DNA of 64,000 nt from assembly GCA_034226945.1 (NCBI GenBank), contig CP120455.1, forward strand, positions 496,001 through 560,000. Direction: 5' to 3'. Each line of letters starts with the position of its first letter. Within the stretch, counting starts at the first letter, position 1. Under the pieces are notes generated by a model, which saw only the letters and a program-made list of their open reading frames with translations, was not told the DNA's origin and made no database searches. The DNA comes from Picochlorum sp. SENEW3 (Eukaryota). Positions 55,768 to 64,000 of this stretch are shown here, one piece after another. Both the position numbers and the translations under genes were made by a program.

Positions 55768-57732
55768 ATGCAAGCGGTCATACATCTTTTCCAAGGGCCT
55801 GCGTCCATATTTGGAACAGCGCTGTTAGGATTATGTGTATTATGTGCTTTATTGATGAATGAATTGACAAAAAAGAAGAAAGGAACGGTGTCAGTGGCTC
55901 TTCAAGCCAAGGAGGTTGAGGCACAGGAAGAAGAAGAAGACGGAAGGGATCAGTGTACGCTCGTGTTTGGAACGCAGACTGGTACGGCTGAGAAATTTGC
56001 AAAGACTCTTAAATCTCAATTAGAGAGTGCGTATGGGTCGACGACGGCGTTTCATGTGGTTGATGCGGAGCAGTATAAAGCTCAGGAGAGGCTGAGTAAG
56101 GAGACGCTGGTGATTTTTCTGGTAGCGACGTATGGCGATGGGGAGCCGACGGATAATGCTGTGGAGTTACATGATTACCTGGTGGAAGAGTCTGGTAAGG
56201 TGGATTATGCAGAGCTTCCGTTGGATGGTGTGTCTTTTGCTGTGTTTGCCTTGGGAAACAGGCAGTATGAGCATTTTTGTTCCATGGGAAAGACTGTGCA
56301 CAAGTGCATGACAGAGTTGGGGGCGACACCATTGTTAGCCATGGGAACTGGAGATGATGATGATGATATTGATAGAGATTTTGATGAGTGGTCTGCCAAG
56401 TTTTTTGAGGCATTGAAGGATTCAGAGTTGTTTGAGGCAGGGGTGACGGCACAGGTGACAACAGAGTCGGTTCCTGCGTATTCTATACAGAAGATTATGG
56501 ATGCGCCGGCGTCTTCTGTGAATAAAATTATAAATGGACGGGGAGATAATGTGCATTCGCCGTATTTGGCAGAGGTGACGTGTGTCAAAGAGTTGCATGG
56601 TGATGCATCAGATAGGTCTTGTGTACACGTGGAGGTTGATATATCTGGATCACAAACTGGATATGAGGCTGGCGATCATATTGGCGTGTATCCTGAAAAT
56701 TCAAAAGATGTTGTGAAGAAAGCTGCCGAGTTGTTGGGGAAGCCTCTCGATTTCTGTTTCAGTATGACCAAGGATGATAGATTTGAGGATTTGGGAGAGG
56801 TCTTCCTTCCAGGTGCCATGACCTTAGAGTTTGCATTGACTCATTTTGCCGATCTCTTGTCGTCTCCGAGTAAAGCTGCTTTAAAGATGTTGTCTGCGTT
56901 TGCGACGGATGCAAAGGAGCGGGAGCGGCTGGTGACGCTCTGTAGTGTGGATGGCGTGGCAGAATATGATGCATATGTGCATGTGCCAAAGAGGAGCCTT
57001 TTGGAGGTGTTGGAGGACTTTCCTTCCGCGAAGCCGACGATTGGTGCCTTCTTTGGCTCAATATCTCCTCGATTGCAGCCCAGGTATTACTCGATATCGT
57101 CTTCGCCAAAAGTGCATCCAACGTCAGTGCACATTACATGTGCTGTAGTTAGGGACCTCATGCCTACTGGAAGGGTTCACAATGGTGTCGCATCGACGTG
57201 GCTTGCACGTGTACGGGTGGGACAGAAGATTCCAGTGTTTTTGAGGAGTTCTTCCTTCAAATTACCTCAGAATAGGAATGCGCCCGTGATCATGGTTGGT
57301 CCGGGGACAGGTTTTGCTCCATTTAGAGGATTTATTCAGGATAGACGAGCAGATTCTACCTCAGCAGAGATGTTGTTGTACTTTGGGTGTCGGCATAGAG
57401 ACCATGATTTCATCTATGAAGAAGAGATGAAATCAGCTGTAGAAGATGGGACACTATCAAAGCTGGAATTAGCATTTAGTAGGGAGGGAAAAGCCAAGAA
57501 TTATGTGCAGCACCATATTGAAAAGGATGGAAGTCATCTGTGGTCACTGTTGAGCAATAAAAAGAACCCTGGGTACTTGTATATTTGCGGTGATGGAAAG
57601 CATATGGCAAAGGATGTGAATCGTGTGCTTCATCATATTGTGGAGAAGGAAGAAGGGTGCTCTGGAAATCAGGCGGAGGCGATTGTGAAAAAGATGGCCG
57701 ATCAGGGTCGGTATCTCAAGGACGTCTGGTGA
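55768..57732 (+). CDS. CPR: NADPH-cytochrome P450 reductase
   Basis: N-terminal TM, FGTQTGTAE, ATYGDGEPTDNA, LGNRQYEHF, LQPRYYSISSSP, GPGTGFAPFRGF, YFGCR, YICGD, RYLKDVW. Confidence 0.97.
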   Translation: MQAVIHLFQGPASIFGTALLGLCVLCALLMNELTKKKKGTVSVALQAKEVEAQEEEEDGRDQCTLVFGTQTGTAEKFAKTLKSQLESAYGSTTAFHVVDAEQYKAQERLSKETLVIFLVATYGDGEPTDNAVELHDYLVEESGKVDYAELPLDGVSFAVFALGNRQYEHFCSMGKTVHKCMTELGATPLLAMGTGDDDDDIDRDFDEWSAKFFEALKDSELFEAGVTAQVTTESVPAYSIQKIMDAPASSVNKIINGRGDNVHSPYLAEVTCVKELHGDASDRSCVHVEVDISGSQTGYEAGDHIGVYPENSKDVVKKAAELLGKPLDFCFSMTKDDRFEDLGEVFLPGAMTLEFALTHFADLLSSPSKAALKMLSAFATDAKERERLVTLCSVDGVAEYDAYVHVPKRSLLEVLEDFPSAKPTIGAFFGSISPRLQPRYYSISSSPKVHPTSVHITCAVVRDLMPTGRVHNGVASTWLARVRVGQKIPVFLRSSSFKLPQNRNAPVIMVGPGTGFAPFRGFIQDRRADSTSAEMLLYFGCRHRDHDFIYEEEMKSAVEDGTLSKLELAFSREGKAKNYVQHHIEKDGSHLWSLLSNKKNPGYLYICGDGKHMAKDVNRVLHHIVEKEEGCSGNQAEAIVKKMADQGRYLKDVW

Positions 57733-58456: not shown

Positions 58457-58518
58457 CTGTGAAAATAACTTATATTGTCGCTTTAAATATTGGTTTGAGT
58501 TGAAGAGTTTTAAAATTA

Positions 58519-58661
58519 ATGCAAAGCGCAGTGAGAGGGTCGGCCCTTATCAGATGTTCTGGTTTGAAAAGCCTCCCTGCAGGGACCAGCTGGTGGCCCT
58601 CCGGCGCACAGAGAGGCATCGTATTCCTTATCGTAGTACTTCAGGGTGTGATAGGTATATT

Positions 58662-58701
<40 letters not shown>

Positions 58702-59058
58702 AATACATCGTTGGCTGCAATGAGTCTCATATCTCGAGCCTATCTAAGGTCTTGGAAATTTCGTCGTCAAACCAGCATTCACAGTCTAGACAATTTAATT
58801 CATCCCATTCGGAATAAAAAGTTCTCATGGAAGGAGATATTCGATAATTTAACGAGCACAGGTCACAAGTATTGCACCCTTTACCGAGACAATTGGTCAT
58901 GCTCAGGAACTGACTACATGAAGGTGTTAAACGCAACAAAGAAATACAACAGTCAAAAAAGAGTACAGCATCTACCAAGAAATTCCTATATTTTTGCTGA
59001 GGGAAATTCGTTACTGGCCCAACTGATCTTCACATTGATCTGTGAGAGCAGAGGCTGA
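58519..59058 (+). pseudogene. Probable gene fragment: type II membrane anchor + GDS/GNS (SGNH/PC-esterase-like) motif, ending just after the motif
   Basis: TM GIVFLIVVLQGVIGIFIY; YIFAEGNSLLAQLIFTLICE then stop; contains a microsatellite. Confidence 0.35.
58655..58700. repeat. Compound (TA)n(GA)n microsatellite
   Basis: tatatttatatatatatatatatatatagagagagagagagagag. Confidence 0.9.
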
Positions 59059-59715
59059 TGGACAGGTCTGTGGAGATGAGTGTGAGCCAGCATGGTTGAC
59101 TTTTCTGCTCTGGGTGATGTATCAGCTGAGGTGTTGAGCATGCATTGTTGTTAGCATGGATTTTTCTCGTGATTATGAAGCGTAGCGTTGCATTCAAGAA
59201 AGAAGAATTCTAAATAAAGAGACGCTCATGTGGCGTACATCATTGTTCTATGGCGTTGCACATGCATTGGCACATGCATGTTGTTGCATCTATAGCGGTC
59301 TCCTGTTTGACCGCTACGGTATGGTTGCCAACTATGAGTGATCTCTCATTACTTTACCCGATGTTTATACCTGGAATGTAAATATGAGTAGCGTCAAAGC
59401 TCGATAATGTACCCCATGTTTCCTCTCTTCTCTGTTGTGCTGGGGAAACGTGTCAATCAGAGCAAGGCATCTGCAAACTTTCTAATAATTCTTCTAGCCT
59501 CGCTTATGGCATATTTGTCAGCACAGATTAATTTTATGTATTTAGGAAGACTGAAACAATAAATAGAACATACCTTTTGACGACGAATGTGGCATGTTGG
59601 TTCTGAGGAACTGTGGTCAAAGTTGAGTGAAAATTTTGGAAACTTTTGAGCGAGACTGACCGCATTGAATTGAAAATATATAATAGCGCTGTTTTCTTCT
59701 TGGAGAATAGTACAT

Positions 59716-60918
59716 TTATTGGCCTCTTGATGAGCATGCGTCCTGAATGATGGCCAGGCCCTGTTCTGCAGGTTCTTGCAGGTCTGGATTACTGCAGTAG
59801 AGAGTCCATGCAGGAGATTCATTCCCATGAGATTCGCCGCAATGTGTCATAATAATGACGTTGGAGTGACAGAGATCAGTTTGCTGCATGGCTGATGCAA
59901 TCCTCTCCTCAGGAGTGCTGGCCTGGGTACCGTCCTCAACAGAACAACAAGGTGATACAGCGTTGTAGTGACACAGCATGGTCGACACTGAATGTCGTTG
60001 GGCGTCTGCTACTTGCTTCATGGTATGATAGGATGCGTTTGACGACATGACAAGGGTAGAGTGAGCTTTGCGGAGACCTTGGATTGGACGTGGCCATGGT
60101 GTGTTGTCCTGTGGTGATGCCATGGCTTGACTCAGCAGTTTGGACAAGTTCACCTTGGATATGTGCTTGTCTGGGCTGTATGATCGATGGAGTGGATTTT
60201 GAGATGACTTATAGGTGTATGGAACGACCACGGATCGAGGGAATTGGCGTATGGAGTGCAACAGCACAGAGTGGAGCTCATCAGTAACGGGAATGTGAGC
60301 TCCACCCTTCCTGTGTGACACCTTATCGTGCTGGATCAGAATGAGAGCCTTGTCCGATGAGAGCACAAGATGGTTCTGACCTGGAGATTCCTTGTCAACA
60401 CTATCAATGATGGACATTGTGGCCCAATCACCTCGTAGCGGTGGCTGCATGGTGTACAAACACAGGGCGAACCATTGCCAGTACTCGGTGGTGTTTGCTG
60501 GGTCGCTGTCGATCCTGCGTTTGATGGCATCCCTGCGACAGCATATCTCTTGGAATGTTTTGAAGGCTTTGCCTTGGATGTTGTGGGCTGTTTCCTGGGT
60601 GGCTTGGATGCGTAACTCGTTGGCTTCCTGTCTCCACTTGTCTGTGGTGGGGTGATGGAGTCCAAGCTCCTTTCTCAGGACGGAAACCACGGGAAGCATC
60701 ATGGACGACAAGACAGATATATTGGTATACGTTTGTTTCATGTAGCGGTATATATCTTCGACCTTGGGTATGAGCCACAAGGAGTATTGTTGGACCTTGG
60801 CAGCATTAATCTTGGACCGTTTCTTGAGGGCATGCATGACTCTGTAGAGCGTTTCCAATTTGGTTCTGTACGATCGCACATCCCAAGGATTGTCGACATA
60901 AAGTTGTGTTGTTCTCAT
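59716..60918 (-). CDS. Tyrosine recombinase/integrase, intronless, resembling virophage/Polinton-like-virus-type YR
   Basis: Catalytic residues in correct order and spacing: LCLYTMQPPL-R162-GDW, HD-K199-VSHRKG, Q280-GL-R283-KAHST, VADAQR-H309-S, MLCH-Y318; ~140-aa helical N-terminal core-binding region. Confidence 0.85.
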   Translation of the reverse strand: MRTTQLYVDNPWDVRSYRTKLETLYRVMHALKKRSKINAAKVQQYSLWLIPKVEDIYRYMKQTYTNISVLSSMMLPVVSVLRKELGLHHPTTDKWRQEANELRIQATQETAHNIQGKAFKTFQEICCRRDAIKRRIDSDPANTTEYWQWFALCLYTMQPPLRGDWATMSIIDSVDKESPGQNHLVLSSDKALILIQHDKVSHRKGGAHIPVTDELHSVLLHSIRQFPRSVVVPYTYKSSQNPLHRSYSPDKHISKVNLSKLLSQAMASPQDNTPWPRPIQGLRKAHSTLVMSSNASYHTMKQVADAQRHSVSTMLCHYNAVSPCCSVEDGTQASTPEERIASAMQQTDLCHSNVIIMTHCGESHGNESPAWTLYCSNPDLQEPAEQGLAIIQDACSSRGQ

Positions 60919-61036
60919 ACATAGGGGAAGAGATAAAAATTTTGGAAATTTTACGCACGGGATAACTCAATTGACGGTTCATGTTTGGCCAGGCTTCCTT
61001 GGTTGCAGTTGGGAGGAATACCGTTGTATTTGTCAA

Positions 61037-61066
61037 AGTAACGTTAGAGAGGCCACTAACGTTACT
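61037..61066. repeat. Perfect 11-bp inverted repeat with 8-bp asymmetric spacer (loxP/dif-like geometry), candidate recombination site
   Basis: AGTAACGTTAG-AGAGGCCA-CTAACGTTACT, ~120 bp upstream of the YR start codon. Confidence 0.7.
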
Positions 61067-61146
61067 ATGTCGACCTTGAGTGGTGACTATCAGTTATCCA
61101 GTGAAGAGGCATGGAAGTATGTTGTCCAAAAAGTCTCAAGTACTAT

Positions 61147-61400
61147 TGTGGAACACCGGAACAGTAGTGGAACAGTTGTGGAACAGTTGTGGAACAGTTG
61201 TATATTTCCCCCTTGGTCTTCAAGTTTCTTTTTTACGTGTAAGCGAGGCATCTATAGGGTATAATTGAAAGAATGTCATAAATGGAACAGTGGAACAGTT
61301 GTTTTCAGGGTTTTTTGCCTATGGGCTTGAGTCATGCAAGACATCCAAAATCTCCCAGAACAAAAAAGTTTGAGAGGTGTTCCACTGTTCCGCTGTTCCA
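61147..61400. repeat. Iteron-like module A: GGAACA x7 forward, TGTTCC x3 reverse
   Basis: GGAACA at 61150, 61158, 61169, 61180, 61191, 61284, 61292; TGTTCC at 61378, 61386, 61394; 80-bp spacer between the inverted clusters. Confidence 0.9.
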
Positions 61401-61874
61401 CCCCGGTTGCCAACCACCCTGAGGTGTGCAAGTAGTCTACCGCTATTAGCCCTTGGTGGATATCTTTTTACAAGTTGAATGCTTTCAATAGTACTCAATG
61501 ACCACTTAATAATCCATTTCCTCTCGAGCGACAGTCGGTGTAGGAAAAAGCATACGAGTGGTGTAACGGTACCGTTGGCGGCTGATCTGCGTACTGCCAA
61601 GTAGAAGTATCACTGGGCCTCGATCTTTATATTCTAAGCATATCACATATATTTACGTGCTTTGCCATAGGGTGATGGCTGCTGGCTGCATATGGAGGTA
61701 ACAAAAAGGCCGACCACAATGGCGTTGACCAGCAACAACGGCAGAGTTCAACTTGATGATATTTCCTGCAGAGGACTGAAGCTCCGTGAAAAGCGGTTTC
61801 AAGGGTTCAATTTCATCATCATAAAACTATCAATAGCGCGTCGGCTATCAGAAACATCGCCGCAGAGGCACAAC

Positions 61875-62213
61875 GTAACTAAAGTAACTAAAGTAACTCT
61901 GTTCTTCTACTGCCTGTTTCCCTGTTGACTGAGGCATGTGGTAGCAACATGTTTCTGAGCTCTAGTCCTGTAGAGTTACTTTAGTTACTTTGTTTTAGAG
62001 TTCAGTAGAAAATGATTGAAAAACATGTTGGACTGTAGTTTCGGACACCCATACCAGAGGCCAGTCACAGACAATGCAAAAACAAAGTAACTGAAGTAAC
62101 TAAAGTAACTCTGCATCATTGGAGTGTAAGCCATCGCATTCCAGTAAATATATGGACTCGAAGACAAAACTTGAAGATATTCGAAGTAACCCCTAAAGTA
62201 ACTTCAAGTAACT
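61875..62213. repeat. Iteron-like module B: GTAAC(T) x9 forward, AGTTAC x2 reverse, with a 20-bp perfect inverted repeat
   Basis: GTAAC at 61875, 61884, 61893, 62087, 62096, 62105, 62186, 62198, 62208; AGTTAC at 61974, 61983; AAAGTAACTAAAGTAACTCT (61881-61900) pairs with 61972-61991. Confidence 0.9.
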
Positions 62214-62414
62214 GCGTCATTGACAGTCCAATATATATCAAACATGCCCATGTTCATGCATCTTTTGGCAGACTTGGATGCATGCATGGACTGTTGAATC
62301 AGTCCAGCATTTTTTGAAACAAGCACGATTGATATTCCGAGTATATGGATATATAGGCTTTGGGAGATGTATGCCAGTATATTGCCATATGGTTCCTTCA
62401 TGTTTTTGTCAAGT

Positions 62415-62804
62415 AGTAGAAATTTGGTGGAATCAGTAAAAGTGGTAAGAGAGTTGATGTGATAGCTGGGCACTTCTACCATTTTTACCATTTCTACCAG
62501 TTTTTTTTCAAAAAGTTTTTTTTTCAGGGATATATATGTTTATATATAACATATAAATGTAGGGACTTTTCCCCCCAAAAGTGGTAAAAGTGGTAGGACT
62601 GAGGCTAACAGGTCACAACAACTGGAACAGCCTGCCTGACACATGTATGTTGCTGGAGTGATAGTTCGGCGATCCATTTTCAAATCTGGTAGCACTCTCA
62701 AAGGAAAAGTCTTTGAAAATTTGATAGAATGCATTGGGTGGCACTCGACTCGAACAGCACATAAAAATCATCCATACCAACAAAATGGTAGGCAAAAGTG
62801 GTAG
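62415..62804. repeat. Iteron-like module C: TACCA x3 facing TGGTA x2 across an AT-rich spacer, plus outlying TGGTA copies
   Basis: TACCA at 62477, 62486, 62495; TGGTA at 62582, 62591, also 62443, 62687, 62786, 62799; 82-bp spacer with T tracts and TATATGTT/AACATATA hairpin. Confidence 0.88.
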
Positions 62805-62900
62805 TCAAATATGAGGATGCATGACACATAATGCCTAGGTTGTGGGTGCCCCTTTTCATCTCCGCACATGACAGTGCTTATATCGTAAACTTTGGCTACT

Positions 62901-64000
62901 TTACACATACCATATAGAATCTTTCATAGCTTTCGTCTTGGCTGCTTGTTGTTGTCTGGCCTTGGATGCTTTGATGTGACTACTACCGTTGTTCCAGGTT
63001 GGCTTGACAGGGCCTGTAGATCGAGCACGCTTTCTCTTCGTAGCGTTAGACATATTCTCGTGTTTTCTTGGCGTTAGCATTGGTTGAAACACGTGTACAT
63101 GCTCAGAGTGCACTGTCCTCCACACCTGATGGCCAACTCCACTCTCAAACCATTCAACCAAGGCATCTGCATGATATATGATGCAATTGTATTGTCAATT
63201 GATGTATTGATGTGGTCCATTACTGTTCATGTAGTCTATTTAATATGATATCACGCACCAGATACACGGAACCCCAGTTGTCTGTACGTTTCCAAGTGAT
63301 TGTACTGATGATCCTGCAATGCTACTGCTACATGTGCAATCTCACATGGGACCAAACAGAGGAAAGGGTCATCGCGATGTACCAGTGACCTCCATTCGCC
63401 ATAATGTTGTTTCGTCGCGTGTTCGCTGTCATTGTTGTATTTGAGACTCGCAGCAGCAATGGAAATCTTAGCTGCTGAATTCCCATTCTCAGCTCCTCCT
63501 CCTGCATCATCTGCATTCCACCCCATCAACGAGACTTCCCCATCATCTGTGGCCCCTTCAATATCTAGAATGGAATCTTGGGAATCTTCTACCGCCAGTG
63601 CAAGGCTAGATGGAGCCAAGGATGATGATGGTGGTGGCACTTTCTTGTCTTCTCCAACTATTTGCACATCCAATTCAGCTGCATCAGATGCAACGTGCTC
63701 CTCTACCGTTGTGCCATTTCCATCCGTAGCGTCCTTGTCGACCTGATCACAAACCTGATTGGTTGGTACATCGGTATCGTCCTTGTCCGCAAGAACGTCA
63801 TTCAACACATCACTGAGGTGTGCTTGAAAAGACTCCTTCAAACCTGGGGAGCCCACAATCTCCACAACCTCTGCAGCAAAGAAAACTCTTTCAGATGCAT
63901 CCATGACAAGTATCACAATGCACCAAAAGGCACGCACCATGCACTTGACCGCTCCTGTTCTGTCTGAGAGCTTTGACCAACAGCACATACTGCCCACCTT
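62901..64000 (-). CDS. Spliced hypothetical gene (5' end outside window), weak resemblance to Crypton/NDC10-II tyrosine-recombinase region; introns 63871-63937 and 63167-63258
   Basis: gtgcgt...tgcag introns restore one frame (..GQVH|EVVEIV...FRVS|DALVEWF..); motif HATKQHYGEWRSLVHRDDPFLC resembles Crypton KTNQ..RH.D..LC. Confidence 0.45.

What the first reader, a model, noticed from the sequence alone, without database searches (positions are those of the whole stretch)
59716..62810. Candidate new system: tyrosine recombinase + loxP-like site + regularly spaced array of three different origin-like iteron modules (integron-like layout in a eukaryote)
SEEN: an intronless YR gene points away from ~1.8 kb of non-coding DNA. 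That DNA starts with an 11-8-11 inverted repeat and then carries three modules with the same architecture but unrelated repeat words (A GGAACA, B GTAACT, C TGGTA/TACCA). Each module has 2-3 copies at 8-9-bp period facing 2-3 inverted copies across a 75-82-bp spacer, plus outlying copies. The symmetry centres are at ~61338, ~61936 and ~62541, i.e. ~598 and ~605 bp apart, and the att-like site lies about half a unit before module A. KNOWN: inverted iteron clusters flanking an ~80-bp AT-rich spacer is the origin layout of P4/SaPI-type satellites recognised by D5-like primase-helicases, which virophages, PLVs and giant viruses also encode. A YR gene divergent from an att site and a cassette array is the integron layout. 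INFERENCE: this could be (i) a non-autonomous satellite carrying origins for several different helper-virus replicases, (ii) a YR-built collection of captured viral origins acting as decoys or memory, or (iii) nested relics of three related elements. No primase-helicase gene is visible in the window, so any replication would need a factor supplied in trans. I could not find a conserved repeat at the module junctions by eye.
Basis: partly seen in the sequence, partly recalled or inferred. Interest (0 to 1): 0.92.

Follow-up and report, generated by a model that had tools for sequence, protein, structure and literature searches.

The report
Viral-type recombinase beside three origin-like arrays
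A green-alga (Picochlorum-like) locus holds a virus-type DNA recombinase gene next to three arrays of short repeated words that look like replication origins, probably a stripped-down relative of small recombinase-origin-primase/helicase mobile replicons, though no origin function has been tested.

Summary
ORF 59716-60918 (-) is a real tyrosine recombinase: it has a Cre-like fold and its R-K-R-H-Y residues are conserved, yet it gets no Pfam hit. Its nearest feature relatives are in polinton-like viruses, virophages and giant viruses. The 11-8-11 inverted repeat and the three word arrays (A GGAACAG, B AAGTAACT, C AAGTGGTA) are real and non-random. Their symmetry centres lie about 600 bp apart.

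The key new result comes from a metagenomic relative, L003. There a single B-type array (same word, 9-bp period, 3+3 inverted copies, 78-bp spacer) lies between the recombinase gene and a divergent primase-helicase gene (putative AEP primase N-terminus; relatives carry DUF5906). In phage contigs the same words in the same layout often sit in or beside replication-initiator or primase-helicase genes.

My best reading is that the window holds a copy without a replicase of a small family: recombinase, iteron origin, primase-helicase. This family resembles the polinton-like-virus "end module" and P4/SaPI satellites.

The integron-like reading is not supported. The array units share no junction motif, and the loxP-like site is not conserved in relatives. 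Only the spacer of array C is AT-rich. Origin function is inferred, not shown.

The parts
59716..60918 (-). Tyrosine recombinase gene: 400 aa, a Cre-like two-domain protein plus a C-terminal extension of about 65 aa
   Evidence: ORF. No Pfam hit. AlphaFold2 on a 126-row alignment gave pLDDT 94.4. Foldseek ranks Cre first, at E 1e-5 and TMq 0.53-0.59. A profile of the family hits integrase 3nkh at E 6.9e-5. In the family alignment R162 is kept in 124/126 rows, K199 in 124/126, R283 in 126/126, H309 in 96/126 and Y318 in 125/126. dN/dS against relatives is 0.17-0.30.
60931..60958 (-). Conserved box about 15-40 bp upstream of the start codon (minus strand GTGCGTAAAATTTCCAAAATTTTTATCT). Similarity to the near-identical copy L006 stops inside it.
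   Evidence: Alignment A3 shows the box in 5 of 6 sequences. Similarity to L006 ends at 60943. Contigs of run X4 start at 60953 and run X5 has a joint at 60957.
59630..59642 (+). Second exact copy of the 13-mer AAAATTTTGGAAA from the box, in direct orientation, 74 bp past the stop codon
   Evidence: These are the only two copies in the window at <=1 mismatch; 0.21 expected, and 0 of 100 shuffles reached 2. The similarity extends over about 45 bp.
61037..61066 (.). 11-8-11 inverted repeat, made of two copies of the palindrome TAACGTTA. Its arms share GTAAC with the B word.
   Evidence: (pair I16). It is not conserved in relatives.
61149..61401 (.). Array A: GGAACAG x5 (11-bp period), then x2 (8-bp period), a 78-bp spacer, then x3 inverted
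   Evidence: L002 has the homologous 11-bp x4 array with one base changed in every copy, GTGTAACAG.
61875..62213 (.). Array B: (A)AGTAACT clusters of 3, 2 (inverted), 3 and 3 copies at a 9-bp period. The spacers are 71-75, 82-92 and 73 bp.
   Evidence: The same word, period and 3+3 inverted layout, with a 78-bp spacer, occurs in L003 between the recombinase and primase-helicase genes.
62439..62805 (.). Array C: AAGTGGTA x1, x3 inverted (9-bp period), an AT-rich spacer of about 72 bp, x2, and x2 outlying
   Evidence: C-type words also stand in the loose ends of other copies just left of 59045, in runs X2, X5 and X15.
59045..59671 (+). Non-coding segment downstream of the recombinase gene that occurs in other sequence contexts. 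A polyadenylated plus-strand RNA ends at 59398.
   Evidence: There are loose ends before 59045 in X2, X5 and X15, and behind 59671 in X2 and X4. A poly(A) run followed by adapter-like letters lies behind 59398 in X15. Contig L001 ends at the equivalent of 59673. No open frame and no Rfam match.

Best explanation
The ORF encodes a working-looking, Cre-like tyrosine recombinase. It belongs to a family without a Pfam model, and its nearest look-alikes are in polinton-like viruses, virophages and giant viruses.

The ~1.9 kb upstream holds three arrays of short protein-binding words. Each is laid out like the origin of a primase-helicase replicon such as P4 or SaPI: two or three words one helical turn apart, facing inverted copies across 71-82 bp.

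The full form of the family is seen in the relative L003. There the recombinase gene, one such array and a divergently transcribed primase-helicase gene (putative AEP primase N-terminus, DUF5906 helicase in full-length relatives) lie together. I read this as a small integrative replicon, a free-standing version of the 'end module' of polinton-like viruses.

The window's copy keeps the recombinase and carries three arrays with different but related words. It has no primase-helicase. It is therefore a non-autonomous derivative that could only be replicated by primase-helicases supplied in trans by related elements or viruses.

Shown: the fold and catalytic residues; the arrays and their statistics; the L003 gene order; the absence of a primase-helicase in the window.

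Inferred: that the words are bound by primase-helicases; that the arrays fire as origins; and how the three came to lie together.
For: Recombinase:
- Model pLDDT 94.4, with Cre as the best solved match.
- The family profile aligns R283 with the box-II Arg of integrase 3nkh at E 6.9e-5.
- Catalytic residues are conserved, and dN/dS is 0.17-0.30.
- The nearest Atlas clusters are viral, Nucleocytoviricota and Preplasmiviricota, at score 0.98.

Link to a primase-helicase:
- L003 ORF 2-943 (-) is divergent from the recombinase gene, which starts at 1674. GAGTTACTT x3 (1149-1176) and AAGTAACT x3 (1255-1281) lie between them with a 78-bp spacer, plus single copies at 1054, 1351 and 1462.
- For that ORF the Atlas gives AEP_C962R / Herpes_UL52 primase clusters at 0.96, 200/256 features.
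- Four relatives of 816-824 aa, 44-63% identical, carry PF19263. I confirmed this on 2 of them. Their helicase part hits PDB 'Primase' 6k9e at E 1.1e-18.
- Viral contigs L007-L009 hold a distant recombinase of this family a few kb from a helicase (DUF5906 by Pfam on L009 only) that is 23-25% identical to the helicase part of three of these four proteins (P0172, P0173, P0175; P0174 gave no hit).

Arrays as origin-type sites:
- Words, copy number, phase and spacer length are conserved between window array B and L003, while the spacer sequence is not.
- All four copies in L002 carry the same one-base change relative to array A.
- GTAACT x3 at a 9-bp period matched 123 viral loci; 23 of them have >=2 inverted copies within 300 bp. 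I looked at 13 of these. In L080, L081 and L071 the cluster abuts a primase-helicase gene.
- GGAACAG x3 at an 11-bp period matched 39 viral loci. I hand-picked 18 of them. In 7 the array lies inside a DnaD/O-like initiator gene and in 5 it lies beside a primase or primase-helicase gene.

Literature (passages read):
- SaPI origins have 6-12 iterons just downstream of rep, with at least two on each side of a central AT-rich region pointing in opposite directions (PMC9371898).
- In polinton-like viruses the tyrosine recombinase, the primase-helicase and inverted repeats are proposed to form one mobile end module, the repeats serving as both att site and origin (PMC11296320).

The window has no primase-helicase remnant: the best tblastn E-value is 0.57.
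Against: - There is no binding or replication evidence of any kind.
- Only the spacer of array C is AT-rich. Those of A (59% AT), B (52%) and L003 (50%) are not, unlike the SaPI/P4 model.
- Other recombinase copies show no arrays in the upstream DNA available: L004 1536 bp, L005 492 bp, and the ~640-bp intergenic stretch of L006.
- The viral relatives L007 and L009 show no clean array between helicase and recombinase.
- The N-terminal primase call for L003 rests on the Atlas and on motifs I read by eye. Pfam, PHROGs and a PDB sequence search found nothing.
- L003 is a single 2.8-kb contig, so the size and autonomy of the full element are unknown.
- The phage parallels were found by searching for the same words, and I chose the subsets myself. 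They show that such layouts are often origins, not that these are.
- The recombinase and its right-hand neighbour appear to be near each other in Picochlorum SENEW3 (locus tags ..1526 and ..1524, with the same largest-contig length listed for both). The locus may therefore be old and fixed.
Confidence: 0.5

Rival explanations
1. The arrays are accessory (arm-type) binding sites of attP-like recombination sites. The recombinase, or a partner, binds the inverted word clusters, bends the 71-82-bp spacer and recombines at a core within or beside it. On this reading the arrays serve integration, excision or inversion rather than replication.
For: Word clusters in opposite orientation flanking about 80 bp recall lambda attP arm sites (recalled, not tested). 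The arms of the 11-8-11 repeat share GTAAC with the B word and with the L002 word. The entomopoxvirus study of polinton-like viruses proposes that one set of repeats serves both the recombinase and the primase-helicase (PMC11296320, passages). The recombinase gene with about 45 bp on each side occurs in other contexts: L006 has dS 0.084 yet no alignable upstream DNA beyond -25.
Against: The model shows only the two Cre-like domains and no extra arm-binding domain. The C-terminal extension is absent from the L002/L003 subfamily, which still has arrays. One recombinase faces three different words. L004, L005 and L006 have no arrays.
Confidence: 0.15
2. The arrays are dead relics. Three related elements inserted one after another, or recombined, next to the recombinase gene. 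Their genes were then deleted and nothing acts on the arrays now.
For: The window has no primase-helicase. The units share no sequence, as expected of separate origins. Run X4 has contigs that join 59148 to 61624 and 60483 to 63627, which could be deletion derivatives (laid at 85% likeness, so treat with caution).
Against: Copies within an array are nearly identical: 100% over the 20-nt arms of B, and 84-100% by TRF. The DNA between them is unrelated. The recombinase is under purifying selection. B-type word, phase and spacing are kept between the window and L003, whose recombinases are about 64% identical.
Confidence: 0.15
3. The arrays are transcription-control sites (operators or enhancers) for the recombinase gene, and in L003 for the divergent gene pair. 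A host or element-encoded regulator would bind them.
For: They lie upstream of the recombinase gene, and in L003 between divergent genes. Iterons in plasmid and phage origins often double as operators (recalled).
Against: The arrays extend to 1.9 kb from the start codon in a genome whose other genes in the window lie close together. Three different words would need three regulators. The inverted 3+3 layout with a fixed ~75-bp gap is not a usual promoter form. RNA contig cover over the recombinase gene and the arrays is thin (contigs cannot measure expression).
Confidence: 0.1
4. This is an integron-like capture platform. The recombinase collects origin cassettes at an att site next to its gene.
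For: The recombinase gene points away from an inverted repeat and an array of about 600-bp units.
Against: No repeated junction site: local alignments between the units do not exceed 60 shuffles each, and blastn finds only the B words. The 11-8-11 repeat is not conserved in relatives. L003 has one array, and it is tied to a replicase gene rather than to a cassette boundary.
Confidence: 0.05

Closest known systems
Replicative/integrative 'end module' of polinton-like viruses and virophages: tyrosine recombinase + primase-helicase + inverted repeats (PMC11296320, passages read)
   Same: It pairs the same two genes. L003 has them divergent around an inverted word array. The viral contigs L007-L009 carry distant members of the recombinase and helicase families a few kb apart. 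The paper proposes that the repeats serve as both att site and origin and that the module is itself mobile.
   Different: Here no capsid or other virus genes are seen. The contigs that hold the pair or its parts are 2.8-5.2 kb. The window copy has no primase-helicase and has three arrays with different words. It sits in an algal chromosome beside spliced host-type genes.
P4 and SaPI/PICI satellites: integrase + primase/Rep helicase + iteron origin (PMC9371898, passages read; P4 details recalled)
   Same: Penta- to heptamer words, at least two on each side pointing in opposite directions. The words differ between related elements. The array lies next to the helicase gene. The element depends on outside functions.
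   Different: This is a eukaryotic nuclear setting. The central region is AT-rich in only one of the three arrays. There are three arrays in a row and no replicase in cis. Homology of the proteins to the SaPI or P4 proteins was not tested.
Cryptons: eukaryotic DNA transposons that encode a tyrosine recombinase (PMC9977147, passages read)
   Same: A solo tyrosine recombinase gene found in more than one genomic context in a green alga. A short sequence shared at the junction is possible (the box).
   Different: No GCR1_C DNA-binding domain and no Pfam integrase hit. The nearest look-alikes are viral. A relative is linked to a primase-helicase and word arrays. No termini or target motif are defined here.
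Integrons (recalled)
   Same: The recombinase gene is divergent from a site and a row of units.
   Different: No attC-like junctions. The units are non-coding. The site is not conserved.
Yeast 2-micron-type plasmids: FLP recombinase + origin + inverted repeats (recalled)
   Same: A tyrosine recombinase combined with a replication origin in a eukaryotic nucleus.
   Different: No long inverted repeats and no Rep/STB partition genes. Replication there uses the host origin machinery, not a primase-helicase. Episomal existence is not shown here.

Membership tests
Tyrosine recombinase superfamily | Two-domain fold with a C-terminal catalytic domain like Cre, XerD or lambda Int | tested here: met
   Model pLDDT 94.4, pTM 0.89. 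Foldseek gave 31 PDB matches at E<=0.001. Cre ranks first (E 1e-5, TMq 0.53-0.59, about 340 columns), followed by TelA, lambda Int, XerH/XerA and the Tn1549 integrase.
Tyrosine recombinase superfamily | Catalytic residues R, K, H-x-x-R, H/W, Y | tested here: met
   R162 124/126, K199 124/126, R283 126/126, H309 96/126, Y318 125/126. The first His of H-x-x-R is D/Q/N in this family. R283 aligns with the box-II Arg of integrase 3nkh.
Tyrosine recombinase superfamily | Match to Pfam PF00589 (Phage_integrase) | tested here: not met
   0 Pfam families for the ORF and for 49 of 50 distant relatives; the remaining one has a weak, unrelated DUF. This is a model-sensitivity issue and does not argue against the fold.
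loxP/FRT-type core site | Two inverted recombinase-binding arms around a 6-8-bp crossover spacer, conserved with the recombinase | tested here: inconclusive
   The 11-8-11 form is present and rare. But L002 keeps one palindrome without the spacer and L003-L006 have none. Binding was not tested.
Integron | Cassettes bounded by a recurring recombination site (attC) next to attI | tested here: not met
   No similarity between the three units beyond shuffled controls. No repeated junction was found by blastn.
P4/SaPI-type iteron origin | Short iterons, at least two on each side in opposite orientation | tested here: met
   A has 2 (+5) facing 3; B has 3 facing 2 facing 3; C has 3 facing 2.
P4/SaPI-type iteron origin | AT-rich, easily melted region at the centre | tested here: inconclusive
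   C is 74% AT, with 40-bp windows >=80%. A is 59%, B 52% and L003 50%.
P4/SaPI-type iteron origin | Lies next to the gene of the cognate primase-helicase/Rep | tested here: inconclusive
   Met in the relative L003. Not met in the window, which has no primase-helicase remnant.
P4/SaPI-type iteron origin | Specific binding and melting by the initiator; replication starts there | not testable with these tools
   Needs EMSA or footprinting and replication assays.
Polinton-like-virus end module (Tyr + prim-hel + repeats) | Tyrosine recombinase and primase-helicase genes adjacent, with repeats beside them | tested here: met
   Met for the family: L003 and L007-L009. The window copy has only the recombinase and the repeats.
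Polinton-like-virus end module (Tyr + prim-hel + repeats) | Part of a virus genome with capsid genes | tested here: inconclusive
   No capsid gene is seen in the window or in L001-L006, but the contigs are short and the window ends at 64000. No capsid search was run.
Crypton | Recombinase with a GCR1_C/GCN4-type DNA-binding domain; several copies; a short terminal motif matching the target | tested here: inconclusive
   No such domain by Pfam. More than one sequence context is seen. No termini are defined, and no genome was held for counting copies.

The most novel reading that the evidence does not exclude
The three arrays may form a multi-specificity origin platform. This would be a locus with no capsid and no replicase, a satellite or a host-kept decoy. 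Any of at least three different primase-helicases, brought in by polinton-like elements or viruses infecting Picochlorum, could load on it and amplify it. The resident recombinase would excise or resolve the amplified DNA. That would make it a eukaryotic counterpart of phage-inducible chromosomal islands, and it might blunt infection by titrating viral replicases.
Probability: 0.15. Interest if true: 0.9.

Novelty: new variant of a known kind. Interest (0 to 1): 0.72.

Why it matters
If the reading holds, green algae carry very small integrative replicons built only of a recombinase, an iteron origin and a primase-helicase. That is the replicative 'end module' of polinton-like viruses living on its own, and a eukaryotic parallel to P4/SaPI-type satellites.

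The window's copy, with no replicase and three origins, would then be a testable case of a chromosomal locus that waits for foreign replicases. This bears on how algae, their giant viruses and virophage-like elements interact.

It also gives a concrete, short DNA target (three word sets) and a protein family (P0172-type primase-helicases) for binding tests.

Tried and rejected
Whole genome: none is held, so copies could not be counted genome-wide.

Depth: summed contig depth is higher over 59019-60971 than over the flanks in X2 and X4. The tool states this is not a copy number, so I draw nothing from it. Parts without cover (58585-59018 in X4, X5 and X15; the left flank in X5) are no evidence of absence either.

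Close relatives in IMG/VR:
- None for the recombinase.
- None for the primase-helicase.
- The broad alignment A2 was too diverse for locus scans. A narrower one, A4, found three viral contigs.

Other searches that gave nothing:
- The loose-end motif left of 59045 is not elsewhere in the window.
- No other copy of any part of 58500-64000 lies in the window.
- No tRNA and no Rfam family.
- No similarity among the three units.
- No primase-helicase remnant in the window.
- Records behind five word-array loci: two were held and had no recombinase; three were not held.
- Earlier notes of this scan: none for this genome or sequence.

Scans for C-type words in viral contigs gave over 120 loci each. 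These are mostly 9-bp coding-type repeats. None of the loci had inverted GTGGTA copies nearby. The loci were not analysed.

A shallow-alignment fold was poor, pLDDT 57.6, and a PDB profile search with A1 was empty.

L003 primase ORF: no Pfam, PHROG or PDB sequence hit.

L007/L009 intergenic DNA: no clean array.

Readings considered and set aside, with no test beyond the absence of further copies in the window: a centromere, and MITE or foldback elements.

Literature:
- 'Picochlorum' + 'tyrosine recombinase' gave 0 papers.
- One search listed one relevant paper, PMC11633385, on Picochlorum-associated viruses (passages read).
- Searches listed no paper whose title or abstract start describes a stand-alone recombinase + primase-helicase element in green algae.
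- Supplements were not read.

Full report
**Setting.** The window comes from a Picochlorum-like green alga. The closest named relatives of two of its proteins are from Picochlorum sp. SENEW3. No whole genome is held. All comparison therefore rests on the window, six metagenome loci, IMG/VR loci, protein databases and one laying of public contigs.

- ORF 59716-60918 (-) is 400 aa with no intron.
- The inverted repeat has perfect 11-nt arms (61037-61047 and 61056-61066) and an 8-nt spacer. Only two such repeats exist in the 64 kb, against a mean of 0.15 in 20 shuffles. Each arm contains the palindrome TAACGTTA.
All 9 AAGTAACT in the window lie within 332 bp, and 5 of 6 GTGGAACAG within 235 bp. 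AAAGTGGTAGG with <=1 mismatch gives 4 hits, all in array C, against 0.72 expected.
- The symmetry centres computed are 61337.5, 61936 and 62536.
- Corrections: spacers are 71-82 bp; only the spacer of C is AT-rich (74% AT; A 59%, B 52%); and B has a second centre near 62037.

**The gene is a tyrosine recombinase of a viral kind.**
- Pfam finds nothing in it. It also finds nothing in 49 of 50 distant relatives; the remaining one has only a weak, unrelated DUF hit.
- A full-database search found 182 representative relatives at E <= 0.001.
- With 126 of them aligned, AlphaFold2 gave pLDDT 94.4. An alignment of 15 close relatives had given only 57.6.
- Foldseek puts Cre recombinase first (E 1e-5, TMq 0.53-0.59 over about 340 columns), then TelA, lambda Int, XerH/XerA and the Tn1549 integrase.
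- The family profile hits integrase 3nkh at E 6.9e-5 and aligns R283 with the box-II arginine.
- R162, K199, R283 and Y318 are kept in 124-126 of 126 sequences and H309 in 96.
- dN/dS against five relatives is 0.17-0.30.
- The ESM Atlas places the protein next to clusters from Nucleocytoviricota and Preplasmiviricota at score 0.98.

**Relatives and their surroundings.**
- L002: its recombinase is 65% identical. The contig starts inside an 11-bp x4 array that is homologous in position to the window's 61158-61201. Every copy reads GTGTAACAG rather than GTGGAACAG.
- L003: 60% identical in the best segment; its cluster representative is 64%. It has one array of the B word: GAGTTACTT x3 at 1149-1176 facing AAGTAACT x3 at 1255-1281 across 78 bp, with single copies at 1054, 1351 and 1462. 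The spacer sequence is unrelated to the window's.
- L004 and L005 show no arrays in 1536 and 492 bp upstream.
- L006: 96% identical in DNA over the first 117 codons, dS 0.084. It loses all similarity 25 bp upstream of the start codon. It is flanked by ordinary-looking long ORFs that match nothing in the window.
- All-against-all comparison shows that only the gene and about 40-95 bp upstream are shared. That upstream stretch is a conserved box, GTGCGTAAAATTTCCAAAATTTTTATCT. The L006 break lies inside it.

**The missing replicase is present in a relative.**
- In L003 an ORF on the other strand (2-943, running off the contig end) starts 730 bp from the recombinase start. The B-type array lies between the two.
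- Pfam, PHROGs and a PDB sequence search give nothing for this ORF.
- The Atlas puts it with AEP_C962R / Herpes_UL52 primase clusters of giant viruses at 0.96, 200 of 256 features.
- Four proteins of 816-824 aa are 44-63% identical to it over its whole length, and all carry PF19263/DUF5906 (confirmed on 2 of them).
- Their C-terminal part hits the PDB chain 'Primase' 6k9e at E 1.1e-18.
- By eye they show DxD, sxH and D..R..K primase motifs, a Walker A site and a Walker B site. This reading is mine and not a tool result.
- The helicase part of three of them (P0172, P0173, P0175) is 23-25% identical to an ORF in viral contigs L007-L009; P0174 gave no hit. These contigs also carry a distant recombinase of this family a few kb away.
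- So recombinase plus primase-helicase is a recurring pair, and in L003 a B-type array sits between them.
- The window has no trace of a primase-helicase: the best tblastn E-value is 0.57.

**Do such arrays mark origins elsewhere?**
Of these, 23 have at least two inverted copies within 300 bp.
- I examined 13 of the 23. In four the cluster is inside a long ORF. In L080, L081 and L071 it is intergenic and abuts a primase-helicase gene: VapE/PriCT_2, Prim-Pol+DUF927 and DUF927 respectively.
- GGAACAG x3 at an 11-bp period matched 39 loci. I picked 18 of them.
- Of those 18, seven have the array inside a DnaD-like or O-like initiator gene and five beside a primase or primase-helicase gene. Two are next to a large terminase gene. 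Three have no annotated neighbour, and one was not scanned.
- These sets were chosen by the word and by me. They show that this layout is commonly an origin in phages, not that the algal arrays are origins.
- Passages of PMC9371898 describe SaPI origins in the same terms as the arrays, apart from the AT-rich centre.
- Passages of PMC11296320 propose that in polinton-like viruses the tyrosine recombinase, the primase-helicase and inverted repeats form one mobile end module, with the repeats serving as both att site and origin.

**What the laid contigs add (contigs only, 85% likeness).**
- Loose ends stand before 59045 in X2, X5 and X15. Their consensus carries a C-type word (AAAAGTGGTAGG or AAAATGGCAGG). 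So in other copies a C-type word lies directly beside the segment that follows the recombinase gene.
- Loose ends stand behind 59671 in X2 and X4, and contig L001 ends at the equivalent of 59673.
- Together with L006, these show the recombinase gene with about 45 bp on each side in more than one context.
- X4 has contigs joining 59148 to 61624 and 60483 to 63627. X5 has joints at 60957/61149 and 61228/61283. At 85% likeness these need confirmation.
- RNA contigs of X15 show two spliced joints (63166/63259 and 63870/63938). Both are GT..AG on the minus strand and restore one open frame.
- The right-hand neighbour is therefore a spliced gene ending at 62901. Its SENEW3 homologue is tagged ..1524 and the recombinase homologue ..1526, with the same largest-contig length listed for both. 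They therefore appear to be near each other there too.
- A poly(A) run followed by adapter-like letters lies behind 59398 in X15. This indicates a polyadenylated plus-strand RNA over a stretch with no open frame and no Rfam match.

**Against the integron idea.** The three ~600-bp units share nothing beyond shuffled controls, and blastn finds only the B words. The 11-8-11 repeat is not kept in relatives. A better candidate for a recombination site is the conserved box. Its 13-mer AAAATTTTGGAAA occurs exactly twice in the window, in direct orientation on either side of the gene, at 59630 and 60936. Only 0.21 were expected, and 0 of 100 shuffles reached 2. The L006 break lies inside the box. This remains a lead only.

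**The words are related.** By my reading, A is AGTGGAAC, the L002 word is AGTGTAAC, B is AAGTAACT and C is AGTGGTAA. They differ by one to three bases in a chain. This fits binding proteins of one family that have shifted specificity, as happens with iterons and their initiators.

**Verdict.**
- The most likely reading (0.5) is a replicase-less member of a family of small integrative replicons: recombinase, iteron origin, primase-helicase.
- This family is related to the end module of polinton-like viruses and works like P4/SaPI satellites.
- Rivals: the arrays are arm-type recombination sites (0.15), dead relics (0.15), transcription-control sites (0.1) or an integron-like capture platform (0.05).
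- I call it a new variant of a known kind. Searches listed no paper whose title or abstract start describes such a stand-alone element, or a multi-array locus, in green algae.
- Earlier notes of this scan on bacterial P4-like satellites describe the same logic in bacteria. I did not test them.

Noticed in passing
window 59630-59642 and 60936-60948: The 13-mer AAAATTTTGGAAA occurs exactly twice in the 64 kb, in direct orientation on either side of the recombinase gene. Similarity extends over about 45 bp. The upstream copy is the box conserved in relatives, and the place where the near-identical copy L006 loses similarity. It could be the recombinase's own site.
   Followed up: partly
window 59045-59398 (+): RNA contigs of a metatranscriptome cover this non-coding stretch and end at 59398 with a poly(A) run followed by adapter-like letters. 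TGTAA lies about 20 nt upstream. Other copies continue leftwards from 59045 with a C-type word.
   Followed up: partly
window 59716-59913 (C-terminal ~65 aa of the recombinase); L004 2761-2901 (-); L005 1724-1867 (-); L002 1717-1942: The C-terminal extension of the window's recombinase resembles a separate small ORF that lies downstream of the recombinase gene on the opposite strand in L004/L005 (33% identity over 48 aa, E 0.003 in a small database). A 226-bp segment there is inverted between L002 and L004. It may be a small accessory domain that is sometimes fused and sometimes free.
   Followed up: partly
window 62901-64000 (-): Spliced gene for an acidic protein with no Pfam family. Its introns are 63167-63258 and 63871-63937 (GTGCGTG...CAG). 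It is only 44% identical to its SENEW3 homologue. DNA contigs of other strains show length changes at 63615-63762.
   Followed up: partly
L077/L078 and L086/L087 (IMG/VR contigs; L078 is 25% G+C): Arrays of the exact 9-mer AAAGTAACT stand in inverted orientation on either side of a UDP-glucose dehydrogenase gene near a contig end: 4+3 copies on one side and about 8 on the other. The records were not held for further search.
   Followed up: partly
L258-L296 (IMG/VR): GGAACAG at an 11-bp period is a widespread phage word. Of the 18 loci I looked at, 12 have it inside DnaD/O-like initiator genes or next to primase-helicase genes.
   Followed up: partly
L004 370-1275: A gag-type aspartyl protease ORF, a retroelement fragment, lies just upstream of that copy of the recombinase gene.
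   Followed up: no
window 57405-57435: The only other 11-nt perfect inverted repeat with a short spacer in the window (11-9-11). It lies inside the 3' part of the long ORF 55768-57732 (+), which I read by eye as an NADPH-cytochrome P450 reductase.
   Followed up: no
window 58656-58701: A (TA)14 (AG)9 compound microsatellite in the stretch between the Ofd1-like ORF and the element.
   Followed up: no
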